Source: an uncultured Gammaproteobacteria bacterium
GTDB lineage: Bacteria > Patescibacteriota > Microgenomatia > UBA8517
Direction: 5' to 3'
Assembly (NCBI GenBank): GCA_964599625.1
Contig: CAZRGC010000003.1
Coordinates: 97,759 to 161,758, forward strand
DNA: 64,000 bases
Every line of letters begins with the position of its first letter. The first letter of the stretch is position 1. The position numbers were made by a program, and so were the translations under genes. The notes below the pieces were generated by a model. That model was not told the origin of the DNA. It worked only from the letters and a program-made list of their open reading frames with translations, and did not search any database. This document shows, piece by piece, positions 380-62,026 of this stretch.

Positions 380-1345
380 ATGGACAATACTCTATCTCAA
401 TTAATTGATTCGTCTTCATCTGTACTTATTATTTTGCCAACAAAACCGTACTTTGATCAGGTTGCTGCGGGGCTTTCGCTTTATTTATCTCTTAGGGATA
501 AGAAAGATGTGGCTATAACATGCCCAAGTCCAATGACAGTCGGATTTAATAGGCTCATAGGGGTTCAAAAGATTGTTTCTGAGGTTGGCAATAAGAATCT
601 AACAATTAGGTTTGCAGGATACGACGCCACAAACATTGAAAAGGTGAGTTATGATATCGAAAACGGTGAATTCAAACTAACTGTGGTTCCCAAGGTCGGT
701 TTCGATTCTCCTCAAAAGGAAAACTTGAACCTGAATTATTCAGGGATGTCTGCTGACCTTGTTATTTTGGTGGGTGGTGCCAACGAGACTCATTTTCCGG
801 TACTAACCTCACCTGATTTTAGTGTAGAAAAAATTGTTCATGTAGGCACAAGAGTTTTAACCACAACCCGTGAAGTCATGTCGCTTTCGAAACCGGGTTC
901 TTCTACCAGTGAAATTGTTGCCAACATAATTAAGACTAACGAGCTTGCAATGGACCCGGATATCGCAACCAATCTCATCATGGGTATAGAAGAGGGCAGC
1001 TCCCACTTTGAGAGTTCCGAAGTTCGTGCGGAAACCTTTGAGACTTTTGCTTTTCTTTTAAGAAATGGAGGAAGGAGAATGCCTAAAAACAAATTAAGTC
1101 CCATGAATTTTCCTCCAGGATCAATTCCCGGAGTACCCGTAGCCCAGCCAGGGATAAGGCTTCCAAAGATGCCACCGATGCCACCTTTGCAGACTCTACC
1201 TTCTTTTGATGAAGTTCTTGCTCCTGACATGGACTCAACCAAAGAGGAAGAATCTGAAATTGACCCCCCTGACGATTGGCTTCAGCCAAAAGTATTCAAA
1301 GGATCCGTTAACCAACCCGAGTCTTTTAGCGAGAACAAGGGTTAA
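380..1345 (+). CDS. DHH/DHHA1 (NrnA-like) fold protein with degenerate catalytic motifs and a Pro-rich C-terminal tail
   Basis: N-terminus (VLIILPTKPYFDQVAAGLSLYLSLRDKKDVAI) aligns to the NrnA N-terminus, but the HxxPDGDAxGS and DHH motifs are replaced (..DLVILVGGANETH..). The C-terminus is P-rich and low complexity. Confidence 0.4.
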   Translation: MDNTLSQLIDSSSSVLIILPTKPYFDQVAAGLSLYLSLRDKKDVAITCPSPMTVGFNRLIGVQKIVSEVGNKNLTIRFAGYDATNIEKVSYDIENGEFKLTVVPKVGFDSPQKENLNLNYSGMSADLVILVGGANETHFPVLTSPDFSVEKIVHVGTRVLTTTREVMSLSKPGSSTSEIVANIIKTNELAMDPDIATNLIMGIEEGSSHFESSEVRAETFETFAFLLRNGGRRMPKNKLSPMNFPPGSIPGVPVAQPGIRLPKMPPMPPLQTLPSFDEVLAPDMDSTKEEESEIDPPDDWLQPKVFKGSVNQPESFSENKG

Positions 1346-1395: not shown

Positions 1396-2013
1396 ATGGA
1401 CAAAAAAAATGACCCCGTAGGACATGGTTACGGAACAGATACCCAGAGAGTTATAGATACTTATGTTTCTAGTAGAGACATTGAAGAGTATAGAAGGAAC
1501 TTGGGTTTCGAAAACAAAGAATCTTTTTTAGCCAATATTCCCCAAGGTGCAGTACTGCTTGATATAGGTTCCGGTAACAATGAATTTTCCAGAAACATGA
1601 TGGATGTAAGACCTGACGTTAAGATATTTAACCTCAACCCCGCTTTGGCGGACAAAACAAATAGACTATTCAGCAAACGTTACAACAATTCCTCGAACGA
1701 TATAGCAGCAATTAATCCAGGGCTTCCTTACAAAGACGCTTCTTTTGATGTTGTTTTGGACTGCATGGCCAGTATTTACCGAGCAGATCCGATTTTTGGT
1801 ATGACGAGAGAGGAATCAAATTTACAAAAATTAAAGGAGGTTGTTAGGGTTCTTAAACCCAATGGCTTTGCAGCAGTGGGCCCCCTCTTGAGAGAAGACG
1901 AGATTGCAGAGTTAGTTGAGAATTCGAGACGCATTGGTGGTATTTCGGTTCAAAAAGCTAAAATTATCGAGCCTAACTTCCAAAGTTTTCATATCCGAAA
2001 ACTACCTCTTTGA
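1396..2013 (+). CDS. Class I SAM-dependent methyltransferase
   Basis: Motif I VLLDIGSGNN. Downstream acidic residue and FDVVLD motif. ..VLKPNGF.. motif III-like. Confidence 0.6.
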   Translation: MDKKNDPVGHGYGTDTQRVIDTYVSSRDIEEYRRNLGFENKESFLANIPQGAVLLDIGSGNNEFSRNMMDVRPDVKIFNLNPALADKTNRLFSKRYNNSSNDIAAINPGLPYKDASFDVVLDCMASIYRADPIFGMTREESNLQKLKEVVRVLKPNGFAAVGPLLREDEIAELVENSRRIGGISVQKAKIIEPNFQSFHIRKLPL

Positions 2014-2114
2014 ACTCAGCCTTGAGTTGTGGTAAAATACCCAAGATGAAAACAAGGTTTTCTCTGAAATGAGGCTACTTTGTTTAACATGACGAATAGT
2101 CTTTCAAGACAACT

Positions 2115-2384
2115 ATGGCACTAGCCAAAGATCACAAACAAGACATTATCAAGAAGTTTTCCCGCGAAAAGGGTGATACAGGTTCTCCTGAAGTTCAGGT
2201 TGCGCTTCTTACCATCCAAATTGAAAAACTCGTAGGGCATCTTAAGGAACACAAAAAGGACGTTCATTCCAGACGTGGACTTTTGTCCATGGTTGCCAAA
2301 AGGCGCAGGCTTTTGAACTATCTTAGAAGAAGAGATGAAGAAAGATACAAAAAGCTTATTGAGGAATTGAAATTAGAGAAGTAA
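2115..2384 (+). CDS. rpsO: 30S ribosomal protein S15
   Basis: 89 aa. [36 protein letters not shown] signature of S15. Confidence 0.92.
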
Positions 2385-2405
2385 AATACAAACAGTAGGT
2401 TTGAG

Positions 2406-2455
2406 GTTGAAGATGGTGTCCCGCAACGGCGGGACTTCAGAATACAACCTTCAAC
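2406..2455 (+). promoter_or_regulatory. rpsO-pnp intergenic stem-loop (perfect inner hairpin GTCCCGC-AACG-GCGGGAC with flanking GTTGAAG/CTTCAAC arms); candidate pnp leader / RNase III-type processing structure
   Basis: Inverted repeats read directly from the sequence. Not followed by a U-tract, so a leader structure is more likely than an intrinsic terminator. By analogy to the E. coli rpsO-pnp hairpin. Confidence 0.4.
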
Positions 2456-2470
2456 TTACCCCAGAATTAC

Positions 2471-4825
2471 ATGAAGAAAATAACAAAATCTTTAGAGCTC
2501 GGAGGAAAAACTCTGACTCTTACCACAGGTGAACTTGCAGAACAGGCAGCGGGTGCAGTTCTCGCTAGAATGGGCGACACAGTCGTATTGGCAACAGTGG
2601 CCGCAGCTCCACTCAAGATGGAAATGGATTATTTTCCACTTACAGTTGAATACCTCGAAAGACTTTATGCCGGTGGACGTATCAAAGGCAGTAAATGGGT
2701 CAAAAAAGAAGGAAGGCCCACAGATGAGGAAATTCTTTCCGCGAGACTTATAGACAGATCCATAAGACCCCTTTTCCCCAAGACCTACAAAAAAGAAGTT
2801 CAGGTGATTGTCACTGTAATGGCTGTGGACATGGAAAATGACCCTGCCATTTTGGGTGCAATCGCGGCTTCGGCAGCTGTTCACGTTTCTACACTTCCCT
2901 GGAAAGGTCCAGTTGCTCCACTTACGGTTGGACTTATAAACGGAGAGTACAAGATTAACCCGTCAAATTCAGAGATGGAAAATTCACTTATGGATCTTAC
3001 AGTTTCTTCGACAAAAGAGGCTGTTCTCATGATCGAGGCAGGAGCCAAAGAAGTAACAGAAGAGCAAATTGTGGGAGGAGTTGAATTTGCACAGAAAGAA
3101 TCTAAAGCGGTTTTGGCTTTTATTGAAGAACTTGCAAAAGAGGCAGGTAGGGACAGAGAAACATATGTTCCCGAAAAACCTTCTGCTGAACTTGAAAAAC
3201 AAGTAGAAAAACTGGTTGGAGACAAAATTGCGGGTGTTGTTGAAAGCTTGGTTAGTGTAGAAAACGGAAGATCTACAGAGCTTCAGGATTTGATTGACGC
3301 AGTTGTTGCAAATGTTACGGAGGAAGATGCTAAATGGGTTCCTGAGATTGTTGACCATATGAAGAAAGATTATATTCGTAGTCAGATTCTCAAAAAAGGA
3401 AAAAGACCAGACGGCAGGAAACTCACGGAAGTCAGAAAACTTTCTGGTGAGGTTGGCTATTTACCCAGAGTTCACGGTTCGGCTTTGTTCAAAAGAGGGC
3501 AGACACATGTCTTGTCTGTAGCTACGCTTGGTGCTCAGTCAATGGGACTCCTTTTGGAATCTGCAGAAGGCGAAGTCGAAAAAAGATATATGCACCAATA
3601 TTCCATGCCTCCTTATGCCAGCGGTGAGGTTGGAAGATTTGGTAACGCAGGAAGACGCGAAATTGGACACGGTGCTCTCGCAGAACGTGCACTTACACCG
3701 GTAATTCCTTCTCAGGATGAGTTCCCTTACACAATAAGAGTGGTATCAGAAGTTATGAGTTCAAATGGTTCGACTTCAATGGCTTCTGTTGTTGGTTCTA
3801 CATTGTCACTCATGGATGCAGGTGTACCCATAAAAGCTCCTGTTGCAGGTATTGCAATGGGTCTCATTATCGAAAACGAAAAAGAATTTGCGGTTCTTTC
3901 GGATATCATGGGCATCGAGGACTTCAACGGTGATATGGATTTCAAAGTGGCAGGCACCGATAACGGAATTACAGCACTTCAGCTTGATGTTAAGACCCTA
4001 AACCTTACCAAAGAAATTCTGGAGAAAGCACTTGAACAGTCCAAGGATGCAAGGTCCCAAGTGATGAAAGCCATCAAGGACACTTTGGCTGAACCCAGAA
4101 CTACAGTCTCGGAATATGCACCCAAGATTAAAGTGGTTAAGATTCCAGTTGAGAAGATTGGGGAATTTATAGGCCCAAGCGGAAAGAATATCAAAAAGCT
4201 TATGGCTGACACAGGGTGTCAGGTGGACGTTGAAGACGATGGAAGTGTTGCTATATCTGGAGTTGACCCGGACAAGATGCAGCAGGCGGTTGCATTTGTA
4301 GAAGGTTTTGCAAAAGTCGTGCAACCTGGAGAAATTTATGAAGGTGAAGTCGTGAGACTTATGTCATTCGGGGCATTTGTAAATATTTTGCCCGGCAAAG
4401 ACGGCATGGTGCATGTTTCAGACATGGGCCAGGAGGGATTTGTTAAAGATGCAGGAGATGTTGTAAGCATTGGACAAAAAGTTCAAGTTAGAGTTAAAGA
4501 AGTTGACGATATGGGAAGAATCAATCTTTCTATGAATATGGATCCTGCAATGGATGAAAAGATCAAAGCTGAAAGACAAGCAAAGTTTGGTGACAGAGGC
4601 GGCAGAGGTGGCGGACGAGGTGGATTTGGCGGAGGTCGCGGCGGATTTGGAGGCGGCAGAGGTGGCGGACGAGGTGGATTTGGCGGAGGTCGCGGCGGAT
4701 TTGGAGGCGGCAGAGGAAGAAGTTTTGACAGAGCCGATAGGGGTGCAAGTGGGGGACCACATTTTCCTGCATCCAGATTAATGGGTGACAATAATTCTTC
4801 GGGTGGCAACGACTTCGGAAGATAA
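2471..4825 (+). CDS. pnp: Polyribonucleotide nucleotidyltransferase (PNPase) with an RGG/RG-rich C-terminal extension
   Basis: 784 aa. Two RNase PH-like domains, KH (..KIGEFIGPSGKNIKKL..) and S1 (..GEVVRLMSFGAFVNILPGKDGMVHVSD..). Tail GGRGGGRGGFGGGRGGFG repeated. Confidence 0.95.
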   Translation: MKKITKSLELGGKTLTLTTGELAEQAAGAVLARMGDTVVLATVAAAPLKMEMDYFPLTVEYLERLYAGGRIKGSKWVKKEGRPTDEEILSARLIDRSIRPLFPKTYKKEVQVIVTVMAVDMENDPAILGAIAASAAVHVSTLPWKGPVAPLTVGLINGEYKINPSNSEMENSLMDLTVSSTKEAVLMIEAGAKEVTEEQIVGGVEFAQKESKAVLAFIEELAKEAGRDRETYVPEKPSAELEKQVEKLVGDKIAGVVESLVSVENGRSTELQDLIDAVVANVTEEDAKWVPEIVDHMKKDYIRSQILKKGKRPDGRKLTEVRKLSGEVGYLPRVHGSALFKRGQTHVLSVATLGAQSMGLLLESAEGEVEKRYMHQYSMPPYASGEVGRFGNAGRREIGHGALAERALTPVIPSQDEFPYTIRVVSEVMSSNGSTSMASVVGSTLSLMDAGVPIKAPVAGIAMGLIIENEKEFAVLSDIMGIEDFNGDMDFKVAGTDNGITALQLDVKTLNLTKEILEKALEQSKDARSQVMKAIKDTLAEPRTTVSEYAPKIKVVKIPVEKIGEFIGPSGKNIKKLMADTGCQVDVEDDGSVAISGVDPDKMQQAVAFVEGFAKVVQPGEIYEGEVVRLMSFGAFVNILPGKDGMVHVSDMGQEGFVKDAGDVVSIGQKVQVRVKEVDDMGRINLSMNMDPAMDEKIKAERQAKFGDRGGRGGGRGGFGGGRGGFGGGRGGGRGGFGGGRGGFGGGRGRSFDRADRGASGGPHFPASRLMGDNNSSGGNDFGR
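4598..4716 (+). repeat. Tandem 54-bp direct repeat (2 full copies + 11-nt partial) inside pnp, encoding the 18-aa unit GGRGGGRGGFGGGRGGFG
   Basis: Identical 54-nt units beginning at 4598 and 4652 (ggcggcagaggtggcggacgaggtggatttggcggaggtcgcggcggatttgga). Confidence 0.85.
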
Positions 4826-4846
4826 TCTTCATTGCCTAAGATTTAG

Positions 4847-5929
4847 GTGATACACTGGAAAGGAATTTTTTTTAAATTTGTTATGGATACTGCCGCACAA
4901 GAAATAAACGTACTTATAGAAAAAGTTAAGGCCTCGGATATGCCCGACAAACTTCGTGAGAGAGTGATGGTAAGACTTAGTCAGTTGGCAAAACTTACAA
5001 ATTCCCCATCTTTTTTGCCAGAATTCGACAGCATGGTCAAATATATTGATTGGATAACAATTCTTCCTTGGAACAAAAGAACTAAAGATGTTTTGGATCT
5101 AGCTAACGCCGCAAAAATTTTGGAAGAACATCATTACGGATTGGCCGAGCTAAAAGAGAGAGTTTTGGAGTACATGAGTGTTATGAAACTTAAAACAGAG
5201 CGCGGAGAAAGTGCAGACATATATAGGGCCCCAATTCTTTGTTTTGTGGGACTTGTTGGTACAGGAAAGACAACGATCGCATATTCTATTGCCGAAGCTT
5301 TGGGACGCCCCATTGCCCGTATTCCTTTTGGAGGAATGGGAGACCCGCTTGATCTTCGTGGACAGTCTCGTATGCACCCCGAAGCAGAGCCGGGGAAGAT
5401 TATTAAAGCACTAAGAGACTGTCAGTCCAAAAATCCTGTCATACTTTTGGATGAAATCGACCGTGTCACAGAACAGGGTAGGGCTTCAATAATGGGTGTT
5501 TTGGTTGAGCTTTTGGACCCTAAACAGAATAAAGCTTTTACTGACCACTATTTAGATTTTCCAGTGGATTTATCCGAAGCATTGTTTATTGCGACAGCAA
5601 ACAACACAACCAATATAGCAACTGCTGTTATGGACAGAATCGAACCAATTTCCATGCCTTCATACTCAGATCAAGAAAAAATAGTAATTGCCAAAAAATA
5701 TATTCTGCCGCACGCGCTTAAAGCGTCAGGGCTTCCCGAGGGGTCTTTAACTATAGACGACGAAGTTTGGATTAATATTGTCCGTCCTTTGGGATTTGAT
5801 GCAGGTATCCGTACATTGGAAAGAAATATAGACGGCGTTGTGAGGAAAGTTGCAAGGTTAATGGTGGAAGGAAAAGCACAAACAGTAAGTGTTACCCCCC
5901 AGAACGTTAAACAATTCATGCCACAGTAA
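4847..5929 (+). CDS. Lon-family AAA+ ATPase module (no N-terminal LON domain, no S16 peptidase domain)
   Basis: ILPWNKRTKDVLDL..HYGLAELKERVLEYMSV, Walker A GLVGTGKTT, Walker B ILLDEIDRV. The ORF starts immediately after pnp and ends after the Lon alpha-helical lid (..GIRTLERNIDGVVRKVAR..). The downstream ORF has no Ser-Lys dyad peptidase motifs. Confidence 0.7.
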   Translation: MIHWKGIFFKFVMDTAAQEINVLIEKVKASDMPDKLRERVMVRLSQLAKLTNSPSFLPEFDSMVKYIDWITILPWNKRTKDVLDLANAAKILEEHHYGLAELKERVLEYMSVMKLKTERGESADIYRAPILCFVGLVGTGKTTIAYSIAEALGRPIARIPFGGMGDPLDLRGQSRMHPEAEPGKIIKALRDCQSKNPVILLDEIDRVTEQGRASIMGVLVELLDPKQNKAFTDHYLDFPVDLSEALFIATANNTTNIATAVMDRIEPISMPSYSDQEKIVIAKKYILPHALKASGLPEGSLTIDDEVWINIVRPLGFDAGIRTLERNIDGVVRKVARLMVEGKAQTVSVTPQNVKQFMPQ

Positions 5930-5979
5930 TGTCACAAGAAAGCTATGCCGCAGTAACTCACTAAGTCTGCGACATAAAA

Positions 5980-6006
5980 TTTACAAGCTATTTTGTTGTG
6001 TATAAT
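5980..6006 (+). promoter_or_regulatory. Putative sigma70-type promoter (TTTACA-15nt-TATAAT)
   Basis: TTTACA 5980-5985, TATAAT 6001-6006. Confidence 0.4.
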
Positions 6007-6559
6007 GTTTGAAATGGCAGAGGTTGGATACAATGTTTACGCACAAGAACGAAGATATATAGAAACCCGTGTTGCTGAGATTACATTGGTGGAGCATATA
6101 GCAACAATGTATAAATCCATTCAAGACAATGTTACTACGGGTTGGCATTCTGTAAACAATACTCAAAACCAAATTCTGGACATATTGGCAAACGATTACA
6201 ATTCATGGCAATCGTTTCCTGAGCACCAAAATAAAGCAGGTTTGGACAGGGGCGCTCACGGTGAATACTTTATGAGACTGATTGGAGCCGGAATATTGGA
6301 GGATTTACCTCACAGATTTTTGTCAGAAGATGGAAAAGACATTTCGGGCGTAGAAATTCTCGCCACTCCTTCAGGAGACGACGGTGTAGGTATATTTGAT
6401 GTGACTTTTAAAATAGAATCAGGCAAAAAGAATGAATTTGGAAGGGTTAGAGTAAACGCAAGTATGCAATCACTTAGAGCTAGGATGAAAGATTTGTCCG
6501 AAGAGATGCGAATTTATAACGAAAGAATAAATGAAGGTAGGGGCGATTGGCAAAAATGA
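5993..6559 (+). CDS. Hypothetical protein (likely true start at ATG 6014, just downstream of the -10 box)
   Basis: Long ORF with no recognisable motifs. The annotated start codons overlap the promoter hexamers. Confidence 0.4.
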   Translation: MLCIMFEMAEVGYNVYAQERRYIETRVAEITLVEHIATMYKSIQDNVTTGWHSVNNTQNQILDILANDYNSWQSFPEHQNKAGLDRGAHGEYFMRLIGAGILEDLPHRFLSEDGKDISGVEILATPSGDDGVGIFDVTFKIESGKKNEFGRVRVNASMQSLRARMKDLSEEMRIYNERINEGRGDWQK

Positions 6560-7649: not shown

Positions 7650-9377
7650 ATGAAAACATCTTCGCAAAGCAAAAACATGAATGAAAAAAATATAAAAACC
7701 AATCCCTCGATAATGACAACAAAAGTTACAGGTGGAATGAAATTTATAGCACTTTCGGGAACAACAGGTGTTACAGAGAATCTTTATGTATATGAATACG
7801 GTAACGACATGGTTGTTGTTGACTGTGGTGTCGGGTTTCCCGAATCTGAAATGTTTGGGGTGGACCTGGTTATACCTGATTTTTCTTATATAAAACAAAA
7901 CGCCCACAAATTAAGAGGTGTTCTTATTTCTCATGGACACGAAGACCACATTGGAGGTTTACCTTTCCTGCTAAAGGAAGTAAAAACCACAGTGTATGCC
8001 AGTAAACTTGTTGCCGGTTTTATTCAGGAGAAACTTGATGATGCAGAGGTCCAGGGGAATATTAAAGTCTTTGACCCCGAACGTGATGTTTTGACACTTG
8101 GAGTTTTTAAAGTTACACCTTTCAGAGTTGCCCACTCGGTTCCCGATGGGGTTGGTTTTTGTATCGACACACCCGAAGGAAAAATGTTCCATGTGCCGGA
8201 TTACAAATTTGATTGGACACCTGTAGATGGTAGGCCGTTTGACGTCGCAAAACTTTCTGTTCTGGCATCTGGTGGTGCATTGGCCTTGGCATCGGATTCT
8301 CTGGGGTCTACTTCACCTGGATACACTGAAAGCGAGAGAGAGATAGAAGGCAGAATTGAACCTATTGTGCGGGACGCCAAAGGTAAGGTGTACCTGACCA
8401 CTATCTCGTCAAATATAAGTCGTATGCAGCAAACTCTTAATGTCGCAGCAAAAACAGGAAGAAAAGTATGTTTCATTGGCAGATCTATCGTCAGAAAGTC
8501 CGAAATAGCCAGAGATCTGGGTTTTATGTCGCAGGGGAACGGAATAATTGTTCAACCCAAACAAGCCGCCAAACTTCCACCCAATAAAGTTCTTTATATT
8601 ATTTCAGGTAGTTACGGTCAACCCGGAAGTGCACTATACAGGCTTTGTCTGGGCGACCACGACTTCTTGTCTATTGGCAGTAATGACGTGGTTATATTTT
8701 CGGCAGATCCTGCTCCTCCAGGCAGTAAGGCAAATGTTGATTTTTTGGTAGACAAATTAATCGAGTCTGATGTGGATGTGCATTATTACGACATGCAGGA
8801 AGATCTTCATGTTTCGGGACATGGATGTATCAAAGACATCGAAATGCTTTTTGCTTTAGTTAGACCAAAGTATTTTATACCAATTGGTGGAACAGTAAGA
8901 CACAATAGAGCATATGGACTTATTGCTCAAAGTATGGGTGCCGAAGAAAAAGAAATCCTTGCACTTTTGCCTGGCGACATTGTTGAGTTTAATTCTGGAA
9001 TAGCCAGAAGGTCCGGAAAAATTCAGGTTAAAGAGGTGCTGGTTGACGGATTAGGCATTGGAGATGTTGGCAATTCGGTATTAAGGGATAGACACATCCT
9101 TTCTAAAGAGGGAGTTGTTATTGCAATGTGCCAATTTGATCGCAACAACGGTGTTCTTTCCGCACTCCCCGAAATGATAAGCCGAGGTTTTGTTTTTGAA
9201 CAAAAATATGGCCGGCTTTTGGATGAAGCGTCACGGGACCTTGCAAAGGTCCTGGATAGAAAAAAGAATGTTAACGCGCTTTTTATACGAAACACTACGA
9301 TTGATTTTCTCGAAAAATATTTCTTCCAAAAAACAGGCAGGCGCCCAATGATACTTCCGTTGGTTGTGGAGACTTGA
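7650..9377 (+). CDS. rnj: Ribonuclease J (metallo-beta-lactamase / beta-CASP)
   Basis: VVVDCGVGFPE..ISHGHEDHIGGLPFLL, HVSGHG, beta-CASP region. 575 aa. The true start may be an internal Met (approx. 7737). Confidence 0.85.
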   Translation: MKTSSQSKNMNEKNIKTNPSIMTTKVTGGMKFIALSGTTGVTENLYVYEYGNDMVVVDCGVGFPESEMFGVDLVIPDFSYIKQNAHKLRGVLISHGHEDHIGGLPFLLKEVKTTVYASKLVAGFIQEKLDDAEVQGNIKVFDPERDVLTLGVFKVTPFRVAHSVPDGVGFCIDTPEGKMFHVPDYKFDWTPVDGRPFDVAKLSVLASGGALALASDSLGSTSPGYTESEREIEGRIEPIVRDAKGKVYLTTISSNISRMQQTLNVAAKTGRKVCFIGRSIVRKSEIARDLGFMSQGNGIIVQPKQAAKLPPNKVLYIISGSYGQPGSALYRLCLGDHDFLSIGSNDVVIFSADPAPPGSKANVDFLVDKLIESDVDVHYYDMQEDLHVSGHGCIKDIEMLFALVRPKYFIPIGGTVRHNRAYGLIAQSMGAEEKEILALLPGDIVEFNSGIARRSGKIQVKEVLVDGLGIGDVGNSVLRDRHILSKEGVVIAMCQFDRNNGVLSALPEMISRGFVFEQKYGRLLDEASRDLAKVLDRKKNVNALFIRNTTIDFLEKYFFQKTGRRPMILPLVVET

Positions 9378-14878: not shown

Positions 14879-17107
14879 ATGAATTTAAAAGATTTTTTGT
14901 CCAACAAAGGAAAACCACCCGAACTCTATTGGTCGTTGGTATTGGAAGACGGTTGGGTTCAAGCCGGTATTTGGTATATAGATCAGTCTGTTGCGCAGGT
15001 TGTTGGAACAAGTCCCGCAGCAGCATGGGAAGTCAAAGAAGAATTGGTTGGAGCAACTGATTCAGCTTTGTCTTCGGCGATTCAAAGACTTCCGGAGGAT
15101 TACCCCGAACCCAACAAGACAGTGTTTGGCGTTCCTTCTTCATGGGTCAAAAACGGCGAGATCGACGAAGATCATTTGAGGTTGATTAAAAAAATTTGTT
15201 CAGAACTATCATTGATACCTGTGGGTTTTGTTGTGCTTCCTGAAGCAATTGCACATCTTTACAAGTCTGAAGAAGGGGCGCCTGTTAATGCGATAGTAAT
15301 GGGAATAGGGAGAGAGAATTTGGAAATTGCAGTGTTTTCTTTGGGTAATCTGTTGGGTACAACTCAGGTTGCCAGAAGTGTGTCTTTAATCGATGATGTT
15401 ACCGAGGGGCTATCCAGATTTGAAAGCTCTTCACCGCTCCCGTCTAGGTTTATTCTTTTTGACGGAAAAGGGGGAGAGTTGGAGGATGCTAAAGACCAAA
15501 TCCTAAAAAATCGTTGGGAAGAGAGTGAAAGAGTCAAATTTTTACACACACCAAAAGCTGAAATATTGCTCCCCGAAAGGAAAGTTTTGGCAACGTCTTT
15601 GGCGGGTGCAAACGAAATTGCAGATGTCTCAAAAGTTGAAACTCAAGACCAAAAAGAAGTTATCGAAGGTCCCTATACGGAGAACATCCCACCCGAAACA
15701 GCAAATGTCCAGGAAACAAACGAAGTTACACCTGAAGACCTTGGTTTTTCTTTGGATTCCGACGTGAGTTTGAACAAACAGGTTGAACCTGATGTTGTAA
15801 AAGCTTTTGAAAAACCGCCGGCTACTGAGCACGTGCAGCCCACGATTCACCGTCAATCTCCTGTTTTTGAACATAAGCCAAAAATTAACCTTAAAGAAAT
15901 GTTCAATAAAGTGAAAACAAAAGCATCGGCTTTGCTGAAAAGACTTTCGTTTTCGGCAAAAATCTCTTCTGCCAGACATGGAGTGATGAAGCCGGTGTAT
16001 CTGGTTGTTCTTGTGCTTGTTTTGGCAGGACTAGGGGCGCTTTGGTGGTTTGTACCCAAAGCGGAAGTAGTTGTATATGTTAGGCCTCAAATAGTTCAGG
16101 AAGAAACAGAAGTTGTATTTACAACTAGTGGCCAGGGTGACATAAATTCGGGGTTGGTTGCTGCCAAATCCGTGACCTCTAATGTTAGCGGCGAAAAGAC
16201 GAAGTCGGCAACTGGAAGCAAACTTGTCGGTGACAAAGCCAAGGGTACAGTACAAATTCAAAACGGCACAGCATTTCCAATCAATCTGACTGCCGGAACT
16301 TTTTTGGTGTCGTCGGGTAATTTAAAATTCGAACTTGATCAGGCAGCCTCAGTCTCTGCTGCGCTGTCCCCGACTTCGCCGGGAACGGCTAGCTTGTCTG
16401 TGACGGCGGGTTCGATAGGCGCGGAATACAATTTGGCAAAAAGTGAAGTATTCAAGGTAGGCAATTATCCCAAAGCCGAGGTTGATGCCACATCAATAAC
16501 CGACTTTGCAGGAGGAAGCTCCAGACAGATTTCAGCCGTAAGCAAAGTGGATATTGAAACATTGCAAACTTCACTTAAAGAGGAGCTAGTACAAAAAGCA
16601 AAGGAAGATTTATCGTCTAAGGTTTTAGACGGCCAAGTGTTGGTTTCTGATTTTGTTTCAAGCGATGTTGCATCCGAAACATTTGATCACAAACAGGGTG
16701 AAGAAGCCAACAACGTTAAGTTAAATATGGAGATTGCTGCCAATGCGCTTGTGGCCGACAAGAACAATTTATATGATTTTGCATCAAAAGTTCTGACTGA
16801 CAAAAAACCGGAGGGTTTTGTTTTAAGAAACGAACAAATAAAGTTCGAGTTTAGTTTTGTGGAACAAAAAGACGAGGGTTATGTTTACAAGGTAAAAATC
16901 AATGCAAATTTCCTACCTTCATTTTCTGAGAAGGACATAGTAGATAAAATTATTGGAAAGAACCGGGCAACCGCAAAAAATTATCTGTCGAGTATTCCTG
17001 GCTTCGTAAGGGTGGAACTGAAAATCAATCCGCCTTATCCGTTTATATTTAACAGCCTTCCAAGAGTTAGAAAAAACATTGATATTACAGTTGAGGCAGA
17101 CAGGTAG
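14879..17107 (+). CDS. FtsA/PilM-like actin-fold domain fused to a TM segment and a large extracytoplasmic domain (function unknown)
   Basis: N-terminal ~230 aa show the actin-like ATPase pattern (..LIKKICSELSLIPVGFVVLPEAIAHLY...AIVMGIGRENLEIAVFSLGN..). TM at ~aa 370-392 (VYLVVLVLVLAGLGALWWFV). ~350-aa C-terminal domain with no motifs. Confidence 0.5.
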   Translation: MNLKDFLSNKGKPPELYWSLVLEDGWVQAGIWYIDQSVAQVVGTSPAAAWEVKEELVGATDSALSSAIQRLPEDYPEPNKTVFGVPSSWVKNGEIDEDHLRLIKKICSELSLIPVGFVVLPEAIAHLYKSEEGAPVNAIVMGIGRENLEIAVFSLGNLLGTTQVARSVSLIDDVTEGLSRFESSSPLPSRFILFDGKGGELEDAKDQILKNRWEESERVKFLHTPKAEILLPERKVLATSLAGANEIADVSKVETQDQKEVIEGPYTENIPPETANVQETNEVTPEDLGFSLDSDVSLNKQVEPDVVKAFEKPPATEHVQPTIHRQSPVFEHKPKINLKEMFNKVKTKASALLKRLSFSAKISSARHGVMKPVYLVVLVLVLAGLGALWWFVPKAEVVVYVRPQIVQEETEVVFTTSGQGDINSGLVAAKSVTSNVSGEKTKSATGSKLVGDKAKGTVQIQNGTAFPINLTAGTFLVSSGNLKFELDQAASVSAALSPTSPGTASLSVTAGSIGAEYNLAKSEVFKVGNYPKAEVDATSITDFAGGSSRQISAVSKVDIETLQTSLKEELVQKAKEDLSSKVLDGQVLVSDFVSSDVASETFDHKQGEEANNVKLNMEIAANALVADKNNLYDFASKVLTDKKPEGFVLRNEQIKFEFSFVEQKDEGYVYKVKINANFLPSFSEKDIVDKIIGKNRATAKNYLSSIPGFVRVELKINPPYPFIFNSLPRVRKNIDITVEADR

Positions 17108-33866: not shown

Positions 33867-35015
33867 ATGATTCTTGGACTGAAATTAACTGTCGAAAACG
33901 ACGATATTGTCGACATTGGCGGAGATTTGTACGTCAAAAACTCCAAAGCCATGAAGCGTCTTCACAGGGAGCTTCGCTACCTGGGATACCAAATCGACAA
34001 CTTGCGGCACGATAAATACCGCTTGGACAAGGGAGCCACCCCGCGCGAAATGGAAAAAGGTGGTTGGTCGCTTTGGTTTGCCAAGTTACCCAATATCAGA
34101 CGTGGTGTCTGTGGAAGCTGTGGAGCAACCATTTCCACTCTCGGCATTCAGTCACACGGCCACAAATGCGAGAGGTGCGGCGAAGTGACCTACTGGGAAA
34201 TGGTGGAAGGATCAGTAATCCGGTTCGTCTTTTTGCAAAAAGAGGGCCGTGGAATGTGGGATCCCGAGCTTAAGATGAAAGTGCACCATTGGGATACGCG
34301 TGAAGGGCTTTTATATCTTTACCCGGAAGCCTTGGAAGGTGGCCTTTCGACTGTGACGGGAGATACAGCACGGCAGTACTTGGGCAATAACCACGAAAAG
34401 TGGAATGTAGTCACGATCGATGGCCAAAAAATTATCGTGATCAAGTACCCCAAGCAGTGGCGGCGCGATACGGCTGTTATCGAACCTTATGAGATTTACG
34501 GTCATCAGTGGAATCACAAGATCGTCAAAATCTACAAAGGTAAACATTACAGTGACTGGGACCGGCTCCCTGTTCCCGAGACATTTTCTATCTACGAAAC
34601 CTGGCACTGGGACAAGCTTGTGGCTTCGCCAACATTGCACAGGCGTGTATTGCAGGCTGTTCACAACACCGATGACAAGGGTTGGCACTACCAAGACGGT
34701 CGTCCCTGGTTTAGAGAAGGAAGCTGGAAGGGCATGGCAAAGTTTATTCGCCATTTTACAGCCCTTGATGCTGATGCCTTTGACCGAGCCTGGCCACGTT
34801 TCAGAAACGACGGTCCCGGCGGGATCGACGACTTGGCACACTTCTGTCACCCCAAAGCCATCACTCGTGATGAGCCAAACATAGGTAATGTTCTTGTTGC
34901 CATGGGGAAACGCATGGAAAATAAGTCTCTCACGCGCGATGAGATCGAAGCAGCCAAACGCGGCTTGAGCGATCCATTGACGGGTGATTTTTTACGTTCC
35001 CTGCGTAAGCGTTAG
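33867..35015 (+). CDS. Island ORF2, hypothetical Trp/His-rich protein with a Cys4 zinc ribbon (382 aa)
   Basis: CGSCG...HKCERCG cluster. Many W/H/Y residues. Higher local GC by eye. No family motif recognised. Confidence 0.55.
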   Translation: MILGLKLTVENDDIVDIGGDLYVKNSKAMKRLHRELRYLGYQIDNLRHDKYRLDKGATPREMEKGGWSLWFAKLPNIRRGVCGSCGATISTLGIQSHGHKCERCGEVTYWEMVEGSVIRFVFLQKEGRGMWDPELKMKVHHWDTREGLLYLYPEALEGGLSTVTGDTARQYLGNNHEKWNVVTIDGQKIIVIKYPKQWRRDTAVIEPYEIYGHQWNHKIVKIYKGKHYSDWDRLPVPETFSIYETWHWDKLVASPTLHRRVLQAVHNTDDKGWHYQDGRPWFREGSWKGMAKFIRHFTALDADAFDRAWPRFRNDGPGGIDDLAHFCHPKAITRDEPNIGNVLVAMGKRMENKSLTRDEIEAAKRGLSDPLTGDFLRSLRKR

Positions 35016-60862: not shown

Positions 60863-62026
60863 ATGTCTAAACAGGACGAATATATCGAAAAATTGGCCAA
60901 AGTGGCTAAAATGACCTCTGAAGAGGCTAAGCGAGCTCTTCTTGACGAGGTACAAAAGGATCTGGTGGGCGAAATTGCCAAGAAGATTAGAGCCGCGGAA
61001 GAAAAGATTAAAGAAGAGGCCAAATTAAAGGCTCAGGAAATTCTTTTGGACGCCATGAAACAGGGAGCCACCCAATACACCGCTGAGTACACAGTTTCTG
61101 CGGTTACAGTCCCCAACGAAGACGTCAAAGGAAGAATAATAGGTGCGGGTGGAAGGAACATCAGAACTTTTGAAAAAGAAGCAGGTGTGGAAATTGAAAT
61201 TGACGAAACAAACGAAATCAGACTTTCCTCGTTCGACGCAATAAGACGTGAAATTGCCAGGAGATCTTTGGAAATACTTATCAATGATTCAAGAATTCAG
61301 CCTTCCAGAATTGAGGAAGTGATTAGACAAGTGAAAGCAAGTATGGAGGATGTTCTTTTGGAAGAAGGAAAGAAAATCACTCACGAGTGTGGTGTTTACA
61401 ATCTTCCGCTTGAGCTTATGAAGATGATAGGCAGATACAGGTTTAGAACTTCTTACGGGCAGAATTTGGGCATCCACACAATCGAGGAAACCAAAATGGG
61501 AGTTGCTATCGCCGAAGAGATCGGCGCCAATACAGACATTGTAAGACTTGGATGTTTACTCCATGACGTTGGTAAAATTGTCACCGACGAAGAAGGTAAT
61601 CATGTGGAGTTGGGAGTGAATCTTCTTAAAAAGTACGGCATTCCCAAAGAGGTGGTTGCTTGTGTTGCAGAGCATCATGAGGATAGACCTTTTTCTTCAA
61701 ACGAGTCAGTTTGTGTGTGGATAGCAGATGCAGTTTCGGGTTCCCGCCCTGGTGCCAGATATGAACCACACGAAGGTTATGTTAAAAGAATGAGCAAGAT
61801 TGAGGAAATCAGCAAAGGTTTCCCGGGTGTTGACGCAGTATTTGCTTTCCAGGCAGGCCGTGATGTTCGTGTTATTGTTAACCCTGATGAAGTAGATGAT
61901 GACAAACTTACAGTTTTGGCACACGATATTGCCAGAAAATTAGAAAAAGAAGCAGAATATGCAGGTCAGGTTAAAGTATCTGTGATTAGAGAAGTTAGGG
62001 CCACCGAAATTACTTCAGCAAAATAA
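60863..62026 (+). CDS. rny: Ribonuclease Y (KH + HD domains; no N-terminal TM anchor in this ORF)
   Basis: KH motif VKGRIIGAGGRNIRTFE. HD domain LLHDVGK. 387 aa. Confidence 0.85.
   Translation: MSKQDEYIEKLAKVAKMTSEEAKRALLDEVQKDLVGEIAKKIRAAEEKIKEEAKLKAQEILLDAMKQGATQYTAEYTVSAVTVPNEDVKGRIIGAGGRNIRTFEKEAGVEIEIDETNEIRLSSFDAIRREIARRSLEILINDSRIQPSRIEEVIRQVKASMEDVLLEEGKKITHECGVYNLPLELMKMIGRYRFRTSYGQNLGIHTIEETKMGVAIAEEIGANTDIVRLGCLLHDVGKIVTDEEGNHVELGVNLLKKYGIPKEVVACVAEHHEDRPFSSNESVCVWIADAVSGSRPGARYEPHEGYVKRMSKIEEISKGFPGVDAVFAFQAGRDVRVIVNPDEVDDDKLTVLAHDIARKLEKEAEYAGQVKVSVIREVRATEITSAK

What the first reader, a model, noticed from the sequence alone, without database searches (positions are those of the whole stretch)
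4590..4825. PNPase carries an RGG/RG-box C-terminal tail generated by a perfect tandem DNA duplication
After the S1 domain, pnp continues with ~75 aa dominated by GGRGGGRGGFGGGRGGFG. At the DNA level two identical 54-bp units make this, so the duplication is recent. RGG boxes are eukaryotic-style disordered RNA-binding motifs. A PNPase with this tail could have altered RNA recruitment or phase-separation behaviour, standing in for the missing RNase E scaffold.
Basis: seen in the sequence. Interest (0 to 1): 0.55.

Follow-up and report, generated by a model that had tools for sequence, protein, structure and literature searches.

The report
PNPase RGG tail with conserved end-motif
The RNA-degrading enzyme PNPase of this uncultivated Woesebacteria-type bacterium really does carry a eukaryote-like arginine-glycine tail recently lengthened by a perfect 54-bp duplication, but the tail is old and clade-wide, and its most conserved part is a short terminal peptide (GPHFPxSR[L/Y/F]) that probably docks an unknown partner.

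Summary
The pnp gene (2471-4825, +, 784 aa) continues 96 aa past its S1 domain. Positions 4596-4716 are a 54-bp tandem repeat, 2.2 copies, 100% identical, in frame, encoding (GGRGGGRGGFGGGRGGFG)x2.

The duplication did not create the tail. All 120 closest homologues and 47 of 47 complete pnp genes from one monophyletic Woesebacteria-type clade have a basic, disordered tail. Its length is 32-98 aa, net charge +3 to +9, with 0-9 RGG triplets.

The nearest relative (92% aa identity) already has the same two units, but they are only 83% identical to each other. The perfect identity here is therefore a recent re-duplication or homogenisation.

Its P-H-F-P and R positions are invariant in all 47 genomes, and it was found only on PNPase among 1.84 billion representative proteins.

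My best reading is an RNA-binding flexible linker plus a docking peptide. The partner is unknown; AlphaFold docked the motif neither on PNPase nor on RNase Y.

The "missing RNase E" claim cannot be tested from 64 kb. The window does encode RNase J and an N-terminally truncated RNase Y. This is a new variant of a known enzyme, of moderate interest.

The parts
2471..4825 (+). pnp coding sequence (784 aa plus stop): polyribonucleotide nucleotidyltransferase
   Evidence: ORF. Pfam RNase_PH x2, RNase_PH_C, PNPase, KH_1, S1. NCBIfam equivalogs NF008805 at 879.9 bits and TIGR03591 at 868.5 bits, aligned to aa 6-689.
4322..4534 (+). S1 RNA-binding domain (aa 618-688), the last folded domain
   Evidence: Pfam PF00575, aa 618-688. 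AlphaFold2 strands 622-687 with pLDDT about 80.
4544..4588 (+). Short predicted helix after S1 (aa 692-706, DPAMDEKIKAERQAK); sequence variable among relatives
   Evidence: DSSP helix 692-706 in the full-length model and 391-405 in the chimera. Relatives have DPSKDKPREERPR and similar sequences here.
4589..4726 (+). RGG/GAR-like disordered segment (aa 707-752): 30 G, 9 R, 5 F of 46; Tri-RGG array at aa 709-749
   Evidence: Regex and composition. pLDDT about 30. Against L001: 18 synonymous versus 1 amino-acid codon differences.
4596..4649 (+). 54-bp tandem repeat, unit 1
4650..4703 (+). 54-bp tandem repeat, unit 2, 100% identical to unit 1
4704..4716 (+). Partial third copy (13 bp, GAGGCGGCAGAGG) that closes the array
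   Evidence: TRF array end at 4716, 2.2 copies; sequence.
4751..4780 (+). Conserved C-terminal short linear motif G-G-P-H-F-P-A-S-R-L (aa 761-770). Clade consensus: G-P-H-F-P-[TAV]-[ST]-R-[LYF]-hydrophobic.
   Evidence: G762, P763, H764, F765, P766, R769 and L770 are invariant in 89 aligned homologues. P-H-F-P and R are invariant in 47/47 genomes, with all synonymous codons in use. Present only in one monophyletic clade. Only PNPase fragments were hit among 1.84e9 representative proteins.
4781..4825 (+). Terminal 14 aa (MGDNNSSGGNDFGR) plus stop. Relatives usually have xxDSKKDFxR. The motif always lies 9-18 aa from the C-terminus.
2115..2384 (+). rpsO (ribosomal protein S15), conserved upstream neighbour
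   Evidence: Pfam PF00312; synteny in nearly all loci.
4883..5929 (+). Lon-like AAA+ ATPase without N-domain or protease domain; conserved downstream neighbour and a candidate partner (context only)
   Evidence: Pfam AAA + Lon_lid. Matches Lon model positions 253-573 of 795. Found downstream of pnp in most loci, both with and without the motif.
7650..9377 (+). RNase J, in the same conserved cluster; candidate partner (context only)
   Evidence: Pfam RNase_J_b_CASP, RNase_J_C. NCBIfam TIGR00649 at 442.9 bits, cut-off 400. Synteny.
60863..62026 (+). RNase Y lacking the N-terminal ~130 residues (membrane anchor and coiled-coil) of the family model; candidate partner (context only)
   Evidence: TIGR03319 positions 131-512 of 514, 452.4 bits. 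All 120 closest homologues are 384-401 aa.

Best explanation
The PNPase of this Woesebacteria-type (Microgenomates, CPR/Patescibacteria) lineage carries a functional three-part C-terminal extension.

(1) A short helix follows S1.

(2) Next comes a positively charged, glycine/arginine/aromatic-rich disordered linker. It evolves by repeated slippage or unequal recombination of short coding repeats. The perfect 54-bp duplication in this window is simply the latest such event.

(3) Last is an invariant peptide, G-P-H-F-P-x-[ST]-R-[L/Y/F], close to the C-terminus.

Proposed mechanism, inferred rather than shown: the basic linker adds non-specific RNA affinity to the KH/S1 crown. Canonical PNPase is a homotrimer (established knowledge, not tested here), so there would be three tails per enzyme. 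The linker also acts as a flexible tether for the terminal peptide. That peptide docks onto a conserved partner protein or onto another PNPase subunit. Selection maintains the linker's charge and the end-motif, while its length and RGG content drift.
For: Shown:
- Perfect in-frame 54-bp x2.2 repeat.
- The tail lies beyond the end of the PNPase family models and has no Pfam family of its own.
- Disorder is predicted for aa 707-784 in two independent models.
- All 120 closest homologues (71-92% identity) have RG-rich tails ending in GPHFP[TA]SRL.
- 47/47 complete pnp genes of one monophyletic clade have the motif; 27/27 outside it lack it.
- Linker length is 32-98 aa and G fraction 0.03-0.43, but net charge stays at +3 to +9.
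- Independent coding tandem repeats occur in other lineages: 51 bp x2.3, 51 bp x2.1, 21 bp x3, 18 bp x2.6, 30 bp x2.1.
- Purifying selection: against L001 the RGG segment has 18 synonymous versus 1 amino-acid codon differences, compared with 310 versus 56 in the core.
- The motif positions use all 4 Pro, 2 His, 2 Phe and 6 Arg codons while the residues stay invariant.
- The motif profile hits only PNPase C-terminal fragments among 1.84 billion representative proteins.
- L001 has the same two units at 83% mutual identity. The window unit is 89% identical to L001 unit 1 and 72% to unit 2. This indicates recent homogenisation or re-duplication of an older arrangement.

From the literature: basic C-terminal disordered regions of bacterial RhlE helicases enhance RNA binding and phase separation, and one of them binds RNase E (PMC11260450).
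Against: - No partner is identified. AlphaFold2 left the motif undocked (pLDDT about 30) in full-length monomeric PNPase.
- It also stayed undocked in a chimera of the window's RNase Y fused to the tail.
- Neither the neighbouring AAA+ ATPase nor RNase J shows an informative clade-specific surface change. The AAA+ has only 3 clade-specific invariant columns, and too few complete RNase J sequences were available.
- RNA binding by the linker is inferred from composition only.
- Synonymous-site counts are inflated by the high degeneracy of Gly and Arg codons.
- The conserved gene cluster around pnp is the same in lineages with and without the motif, so synteny does not point to the partner.
Confidence: 0.58

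Rival explanations
1. One reading: the RGG tail drives condensate formation or RNA recruitment, so that PNPase itself organises RNA decay in place of a missing RNase E scaffold.
For: - The Tri-RGG array has regularly spaced Phe 'stickers' and is predicted disordered.
- Canonical PNPase is a trimer (established knowledge), which would give multivalency.
- A survey states that CPR genomes preserve rnj, rnc and pnp (PMC12641178).
- RNase Y in this clade lacks the N-terminal region. In B. subtilis that region is thought to bind degradosome partners (PMC9775385).
- Bacterial RhlE disordered regions phase-separate (PMC11260450).
Against: - RGG richness is confined to part of the clade. Only 13 of 47 motif-bearing genomes meet Tri-RGG. 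Many have no RGG at all and as little as 3% Gly, yet they keep the charge and the end-motif.
- Absence of RNase E was not and cannot be shown from 64 kb.
- RNase J and RNase Y are both present in the window.
- No condensation test was possible.
Confidence: 0.2
2. The terminal motif folds back on PNPase itself, within or between subunits. It would act as an autoregulatory element, for example gating the KH/S1 crown or the RNA channel, with the basic linker competing with or guiding RNA.
For: - The motif is found only on PNPase, as expected for a self-interaction.
- It arose once and was never lost in the sampled clade.
- No external partner was identified.
Against: The AlphaFold2 monomer model does not dock it (pLDDT about 30). 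The trimer could not be modelled.
Confidence: 0.12
3. The RGG stretch is neutral low-complexity expansion produced by replication slippage, with no function of its own.
For: - Length and composition vary widely between species.
- Independent tandem repeats occur in several lineages.
- The newest duplication is too young to have been tested by selection.
Against: - 18:1 synonymous to amino-acid differences in the RGG segment against L001.
- A tail is retained in all 167 sequences examined in the clade.
- Net charge stays within a narrow range despite a three-fold length range.
- Not seen in any other ORF of the window.
Confidence: 0.07
4. The two identical units are an assembly artefact, and the true genome has one unit or a different number.
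For: The exact protein is on record from a single contig. No read data were available, and the look-up of the encoding contig found nothing.
Against: - The independently assembled closest relative, L001, has the same two-unit structure with diverged units. These cannot be an artefact.
- The whole array is only 121 bp, which I judge short enough for ordinary sequencing reads to span.
- The reading frame and the downstream conserved motif are intact.
Confidence: 0.03

Closest known systems
Canonical bacterial PNPase (E. coli / B. subtilis Pnp; NCBIfam TIGR03591, NF008805)
   Same: Complete RNase PH-like x2 / alpha / KH / S1 architecture. Scores far above the equivalog cut-off. The rpsO-pnp gene order is kept.
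   Different: A 96-aa extension lies beyond the end of the family model (aa 689). It consists of an RGG-rich disordered linker and a clade-specific terminal motif. No Pfam family matches it.
Eukaryotic RGG/RG boxes and GAR domains (nucleolin, fibrillarin, FUS, hnRNP family). The pattern definition is from my own recollection of Thandapani et al. 2013.
   Same: Seven RGG triplets with 0-4 residue spacers and interspersed Phe. Predicted disorder. Attached to an RNA-binding enzyme.
   Different: Bacterial, and fused to a phosphorolytic exoribonuclease. No evidence of arginine methylation machinery. The RGG state is lineage-specific within the clade. It is followed by an invariant non-RGG peptide. 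This is resemblance by composition, not homology.
Basic C-terminal disordered regions of bacterial DEAD-box helicases RhlE1/RhlE2 (P. aeruginosa; PMC11260450)
   Same: An RNA-metabolism enzyme core plus a basic C-terminal disordered region. In RhlE that region enhances RNA binding and phase separation, and in RhlE2 it carries a protein-interaction function with RNase E.
   Different: A different enzyme family and composition. Here nothing has been shown experimentally, and the partner is unknown.
Bacterial SSB: glycine-rich disordered linker plus conserved C-terminal tip (DDDIPF) that recruits partner proteins (own knowledge)
   Same: The same architecture: a nucleic-acid-binding fold, then a variable-length Gly-rich linker, then an invariant terminal peptide. 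The linker varies freely between species while the tip is fixed.
   Different: The SSB tip is acidic and its linker is not Arg-rich. Here the linker is cationic and the tip is His/Phe/Pro/Arg-based. Partner recruitment is only inferred.
Degradosome scaffolds: RNase E C-terminal half with short linear motifs (PMC4435900) and the RNase Y N-terminal domain (PMC9775385)
   Same: A disordered, Arg-rich RNA-binding segment combined with a short conserved interaction-type motif on an RNA-decay enzyme.
   Different: The polarity is inverted: the disordered region and motif sit on the exonuclease, not on the endonuclease. There is only one motif rather than several. No membrane anchor is present. The clade's RNase Y lacks its N-terminal region.

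Membership tests
PNPase (polyribonucleotide nucleotidyltransferase) | Domain order: RNase PH-like 1, alpha-helical PNPase domain, RNase PH-like 2, KH, S1 | tested here: met
   Pfam hits for all five domains in the expected order. The AlphaFold2 core is confident, mean pLDDT 77.9 including the disordered tail.
PNPase (polyribonucleotide nucleotidyltransferase) | Full-length match to the curated equivalog model above its cut-off | tested here: met
   NF008805 879.9 bits (cut-off 471); TIGR03591 868.5 bits (cut-off 525).
RGG/RG motif class (Tri-RGG: RGG-X0-4-RGG-X0-4-RGG; definition recalled from Thandapani et al. 2013) | Sequence pattern of at least three closely spaced RGG triplets | tested here: met
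   aa 709-749 contain seven RGG triplets with spacers of 0-4 residues. The pattern is also met by 69/120 close homologues, by 13/47 motif-bearing genomes, and by 0/27 genomes outside the clade.
RGG/RG motif class | Intrinsic disorder of the region | tested here: met
   pLDDT 29-34 for aa 707-784 in the full-length model and 28-33 in the chimera. This is a proxy only.
RGG/RG motif class | Direct RNA binding by the RGG region | not testable with these tools
   Requires EMSA or filter binding with and without aa 707-752.
RGG/RG motif class | Arginine methylation by PRMT-type enzymes | not tested
   No search for a methyltransferase partner was made. One small methyltransferase-domain ORF (1396-2013) lies upstream, but nothing links it to the tail.
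Degradosome-type scaffold (disordered region bearing short linear motifs that recruit partners) | Conserved short linear motif embedded in a disordered region | tested here: met
   GPHFPx[ST]R[LYF]: the P-H-F-P and R positions are invariant in 47/47 genomes with free synonymous variation, inside a region of pLDDT about 30.
Degradosome-type scaffold (disordered region bearing short linear motifs that recruit partners) | Motif binds a defined partner enzyme | tested here: inconclusive
   An AlphaFold2 chimera of RNase Y plus the tail did not dock the motif. The PNPase monomer did not dock it either. RNase J, the AAA+ ATPase and the PNPase trimer could not be modelled.
Phase-separating RNA-decay hub (BR-body-like) | RNA-dependent condensate formation by the disordered region | not testable with these tools
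   Composition is compatible, but RGG/aromatic content is not conserved across the clade.
Hypervariable coding tandem repeat | Repeat number differs between close relatives | tested here: inconclusive
   Between species, length and repeat structure differ widely, and independent repeats occur. The only close relative (92% aa identity) has the same unit number. No strain-level genomes were available, since the 90% cluster has one member.

The most novel reading that the evidence does not exclude
In Woesebacteria the polarity of the RNA degradosome is inverted. RNase Y has lost its N-terminal membrane-anchor and scaffold region, and the exonuclease PNPase has acquired the scaffold. That scaffold is a cationic RGG linker, which gathers RNA and possibly forms condensates through three tails per trimer, plus a private docking peptide (GPHFPxSR[LYF]). 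The peptide would recruit RNase J, RNase Y or the Lon-like AAA+ ATPase encoded in the conserved rpsO-pnp-AAA-rnj cluster.
Probability: 0.15. Interest if true: 0.7.

Novelty: new variant of a known kind. Interest (0 to 1): 0.42.

Why it matters
PNPase is one of the few ribonucleases kept by the genome-reduced CPR bacteria, and how these organisms organise RNA decay is unknown.

A clade-wide, selected extension on PNPase, with its invariant terminal peptide, gives a concrete handle for recombinant biochemistry and interaction screens. Tail deletion, peptide pull-down and droplet assays can all be done without cultivating the organism.

It is also a clean natural example of a disordered linker evolving by coding tandem duplications while its charge and a terminal short linear motif stay fixed.

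In six literature searches I found no paper that describes an RGG tail or this motif on a bacterial PNPase.

Tried and rejected
1. Motif on other proteins. A 30-position profile of the terminal motif was searched against 1.84 billion representative proteins. It gave 8 hits, all PNPase C-terminal fragments. The Protein Data Bank gave none, and Pfam gave none for the tail. The idea of a docking motif shared by several decay enzymes is rejected.

2. Other RG-rich or PHFP-bearing ORFs. None was found in the window. In 80 related loci the only extra PHFP matches were the pnp end of L003, missed by the first ORF pick, and stop-interrupted chance matches on the opposite strand.

3. Intramolecular docking. 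The full-length AlphaFold2 model leaves aa 707-784 at pLDDT about 30.

4. RNase Y as partner. A chimera of the window's RNase Y plus tail aa 689-784 left the tail at pLDDT 28-33. A first alignment that included the tail rows was discarded, because MAFFT misplaced them onto RNase Y.

5. Partner by co-variation. The AAA+ ATPase shows only 3 clade-specific invariant columns. Too few complete RNase J sequences were available. Uninformative.

6. Partner by synteny. The cluster rpsO-pnp-AAA+-(phosphoesterase)-(UDG)-rnj is the same in lineages with and without the motif. It does not discriminate.

7. Nucleotide-level element. No Rfam match was found in 1900-6100, and no + strand terminator-like site was found in that region. 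Synonymous variation at the motif rules out selection at the nucleotide level.

8. Source record. The look-up by exact protein found nothing, so read-level or strain-level checks were impossible.

9. Literature. Six searches found no description of an RGG-tailed bacterial PNPase.

10. The minus-strand ORFs across the repeat (4418-4762, 4483-4809, 4563-4832) are by-products of the repetitive sequence. They were not pursued.
Full report
**What is in the sequence**

The region lies in the 3' part of a 784-aa ORF at 2471-4825 on the + strand. Pfam finds the complete PNPase architecture, with the S1 domain ending at aa 688. The NCBIfam PNPase equivalog models score 880 and 869 bits and end at aa 689. 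The gene follows rpsO, as in most bacteria.

Tandem Repeats Finder reports a 54-bp period, 2.2 copies, 100% matches, at 4596-4716, with an older 27-bp sub-period inside at 67%. The two full units (4596-4649 and 4650-4703) are identical base for base. They encode GGRGGGRGGFGGGRGGFG twice.

The RGG array spans aa 709-749 and meets the eukaryotic Tri-RGG pattern. The rest of the finding's interval (aa 753-784) is not RGG-like. No other ORF in any frame of the 64-kb window has an RG-rich stretch.

**Which organism, and how common the tail is**

The 120 best protein matches (71-92% identity) are labelled Woesebacteria, Microgenomates or Patescibacteria where they are named at all. All are 763-814 aa apart from one record labelled partial. 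Every complete one has an RG-rich tail after S1, ending in ...GGPHFP[TA]SRLxxDxxKKDFxR.

Eighty loci were fetched from a species-level genome collection, at 49-92% identity. Of these, 73 carry a complete pnp gene. Together with the window's own gene that makes 74 sequences: 47 have the PHFP motif and 27 lack it. In a neighbour-joining tree of the catalytic core, the 47 form one clade with no motif-less sequence inside.

Outside that clade (Shapirobacteria, Roizmanbacteria and other Microgenomates) the tails are 3-89 aa. Many are basic and Pro/Arg-rich, none has the motif, and none meets even a Di-RGG pattern.

**What is conserved and what varies**

Within the motif-bearing clade the linker between S1 and the motif varies widely:
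- length: 32-98 aa
- glycine fraction: 0.03-0.43
- RGG triplets: 0-9

Net charge, by contrast, stays between +3 and +9.

Several lineages have their own coding tandem repeats in this linker: 51 bp x2.3 at 86%, 51 bp x2.1 at 89%, 21 bp x3, 30 bp x2.1 and 18 bp x2.6. Repeat gain and loss is therefore the normal mode of evolution here.

The end-motif behaves differently. P, H, F, P and R are invariant in 47/47 genomes. The following position is L, Y or F, and the next is hydrophobic. All four Pro codons, both His, both Phe and all six Arg codons are in use, so selection acts on the protein. The motif always lies 9-18 residues from the C-terminus.

**Age of the duplication**

The closest relative is L001, an independent assembly with 92% aa identity and 79% nucleotide identity over the core. 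It has the same two-unit protein organisation, but its two 54-bp units are only 83% identical to each other. The window's unit is 89% identical to L001 unit 1 and 72% to unit 2.

The simplest reading is that the two-unit arrangement predates the split. In the window's lineage, unit 2 was then recently overwritten by unit 1, through gene conversion or unequal crossing-over, or was lost and re-duplicated. Independent duplications in the same register are a less parsimonious alternative.

Either way the duplication did not create the tail. The L001 comparison also argues against a simple assembly artefact, although reads could not be checked.

**Is the RGG part under selection?**

Codon by codon against L001, the RGG segment (aa 707-749) has 22 identical codons, 18 synonymous differences, 1 amino-acid difference and 2 gap positions. 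The catalytic core has 322, 310 and 56. The tail is thus at least as constrained as the core over this distance. One caveat is that Gly and Arg codons offer many synonymous sites.

**Structure and partner tests**

AlphaFold2 with an 89-sequence alignment gives a confident core, a short helix at 692-706 and pLDDT about 30 for aa 707-784. The tail is disordered, and the motif does not dock on the monomer.

A profile of the motif searched against 1.84 billion representative proteins found only eight hits, all PNPase C-terminal fragments. The Protein Data Bank and Pfam gave nothing. The motif is private to PNPase.

The neighbourhood rpsO-pnp-(Lon-like AAA+ without protease or N-domain)-(phosphoesterase)-(UDG)-RNase J is conserved in Microgenomates both with and without the motif. 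It therefore suggests candidate partners but does not discriminate among them.

The window also encodes an RNase Y (60863-62026) that matches only positions 131-512 of the 514-position family model. It lacks the membrane anchor and coiled-coil region. All 120 closest homologues are equally short, at 384-401 aa. In B. subtilis that N-terminal region is thought to bind degradosome partners (PMC9775385).

A chimera of this RNase Y fused to the PNPase tail was accepted for prediction. The tail stayed at pLDDT 28-33, so there is no support for RNase Y as a monomeric partner. RNase J, the AAA+ ATPase and the PNPase trimer could not be modelled.

**Interpretation**

The best-supported account is a functional extension of three parts:
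- a cationic disordered linker, RGG-rich in this sub-clade, which most likely adds non-specific RNA affinity and acts as a flexible tether;
- an invariant terminal peptide, which most likely docks a conserved surface, either on a partner or on a neighbouring PNPase subunit;
- the 54-bp duplication, which is the latest step in ongoing repeat turnover.

Conservation, selection, disorder and distribution are shown here. RNA binding and docking are inferred.

It cannot be the conserved function, because many clade members keep the charge and the motif with almost no Gly or RGG.

'Missing RNase E' was not testable. A survey states that CPR genomes preserve rnj, rnc and pnp (PMC12641178), and the window contains RNase J and the truncated RNase Y.

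**Comparison with what is known**

The protein is a bona fide PNPase. The tail resembles eukaryotic GAR/RGG domains by composition, not by descent.

In architecture it resembles two bacterial systems. One is the SSB disordered linker plus C-terminal tip (own knowledge). The other is the basic C-terminal disordered region of RhlE helicases, which enhances RNA binding and condensation and in one case binds RNase E (PMC11260450).

Relative to RNase E or RNase Y scaffolds, the polarity is inverted: the disordered region and motif sit on the exonuclease.

Six literature searches found no description of such a PNPase.

**Verdict**

This is a real feature and a new variant of a known enzyme, of moderate interest (0.42). 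The most novel reading not excluded is that PNPase is the degradosome hub in these bacteria, compensating for a scaffold-less RNase Y. I give that a probability of about 0.15, and an interest of 0.7 if true.

Noticed in passing
window 4883-5929 (+), and downstream of pnp in most of L001-L080: A 348-aa Lon-like AAA+ ATPase (AAA + Lon lid) matches only positions 253-573 of the 795-position Lon model. It has no N-domain and no protease domain. It sits immediately downstream of pnp in most Microgenomates loci examined, usually followed by a phosphoesterase, a UDG-family gene and RNase J.
   Followed up: partly
window 60863-62026 (+): RNase Y of only 387 aa, downstream of recA. It matches TIGR03319 positions 131-512 of 514, so the membrane anchor and coiled-coil N-terminal region are absent. 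It scores 452.4 bits, just under the 454.35 cut-off. All 120 closest homologues are 384-401 aa and 86-100% identical, more conserved than PNPase.
   Followed up: partly
window 5930-6546 (ORF 5993-6559, +): About 600 bp holding a 188-aa TTG-start ORF lies between the AAA+ gene and the phosphoesterase gene. The ORF has no Pfam or PHROG match, and tblastn found no counterpart in any of the 80 related loci. In L001 the two flanking genes are only 43 bp apart. It is a lineage-specific insertion or a spurious ORF.
   Followed up: partly
record titles of L001, L009, L012, L016, L025, L057 and many others: Many genome records that carry a clearly Woesebacteria/Microgenomates-type pnp cluster are titled 'uncultured Gammaproteobacteria bacterium', 'Alphaproteobacteria bacterium', 'Nevskiaceae bacterium' or 'Candidatus Nanoarchaeia archaeon'. 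The deposited taxonomy labels look wrong.
   Followed up: no
protein P0126 (216 aa, partial): A PNPase fragment in which the sequence runs from the start of the S1 domain (..AGEVYEGTV) straight into a basic tail ending in GGPHFPTSRFLDKNKKRF. This may be a variant that has lost most of S1 but kept the terminal motif.
   Followed up: no
L010, L017, L003, L006, L040, L022, L042 (pnp 3' ends): Independent in-frame tandem repeats occur in the same linker in other species: 51 bp x2.3 at 86%, 51 bp x2.1 at 89%, 21 bp x3-3.4, 30 bp x2.1 and 18 bp x2.6 at 92%. Repeat turnover in this segment is recurrent.
   Followed up: yes
window 14879-17107 (+), 33867-35015 (+) and 380-1345 (+): ORFs of 742, 382 and 321 aa with no Pfam or PHROG match. 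The 321-aa ORF is conserved upstream of rpsO-pnp across most related loci, at 27-82% identity.
   Followed up: no
window 4418-4832 (-) and 4554-4781 (+, other frame): Four ORFs of 75-114 aa overlap the repeat in other frames, for example a PPPNPPRPPP-rich one. They are by-products of the repetitive GC-rich coding sequence, not genes.
   Followed up: no
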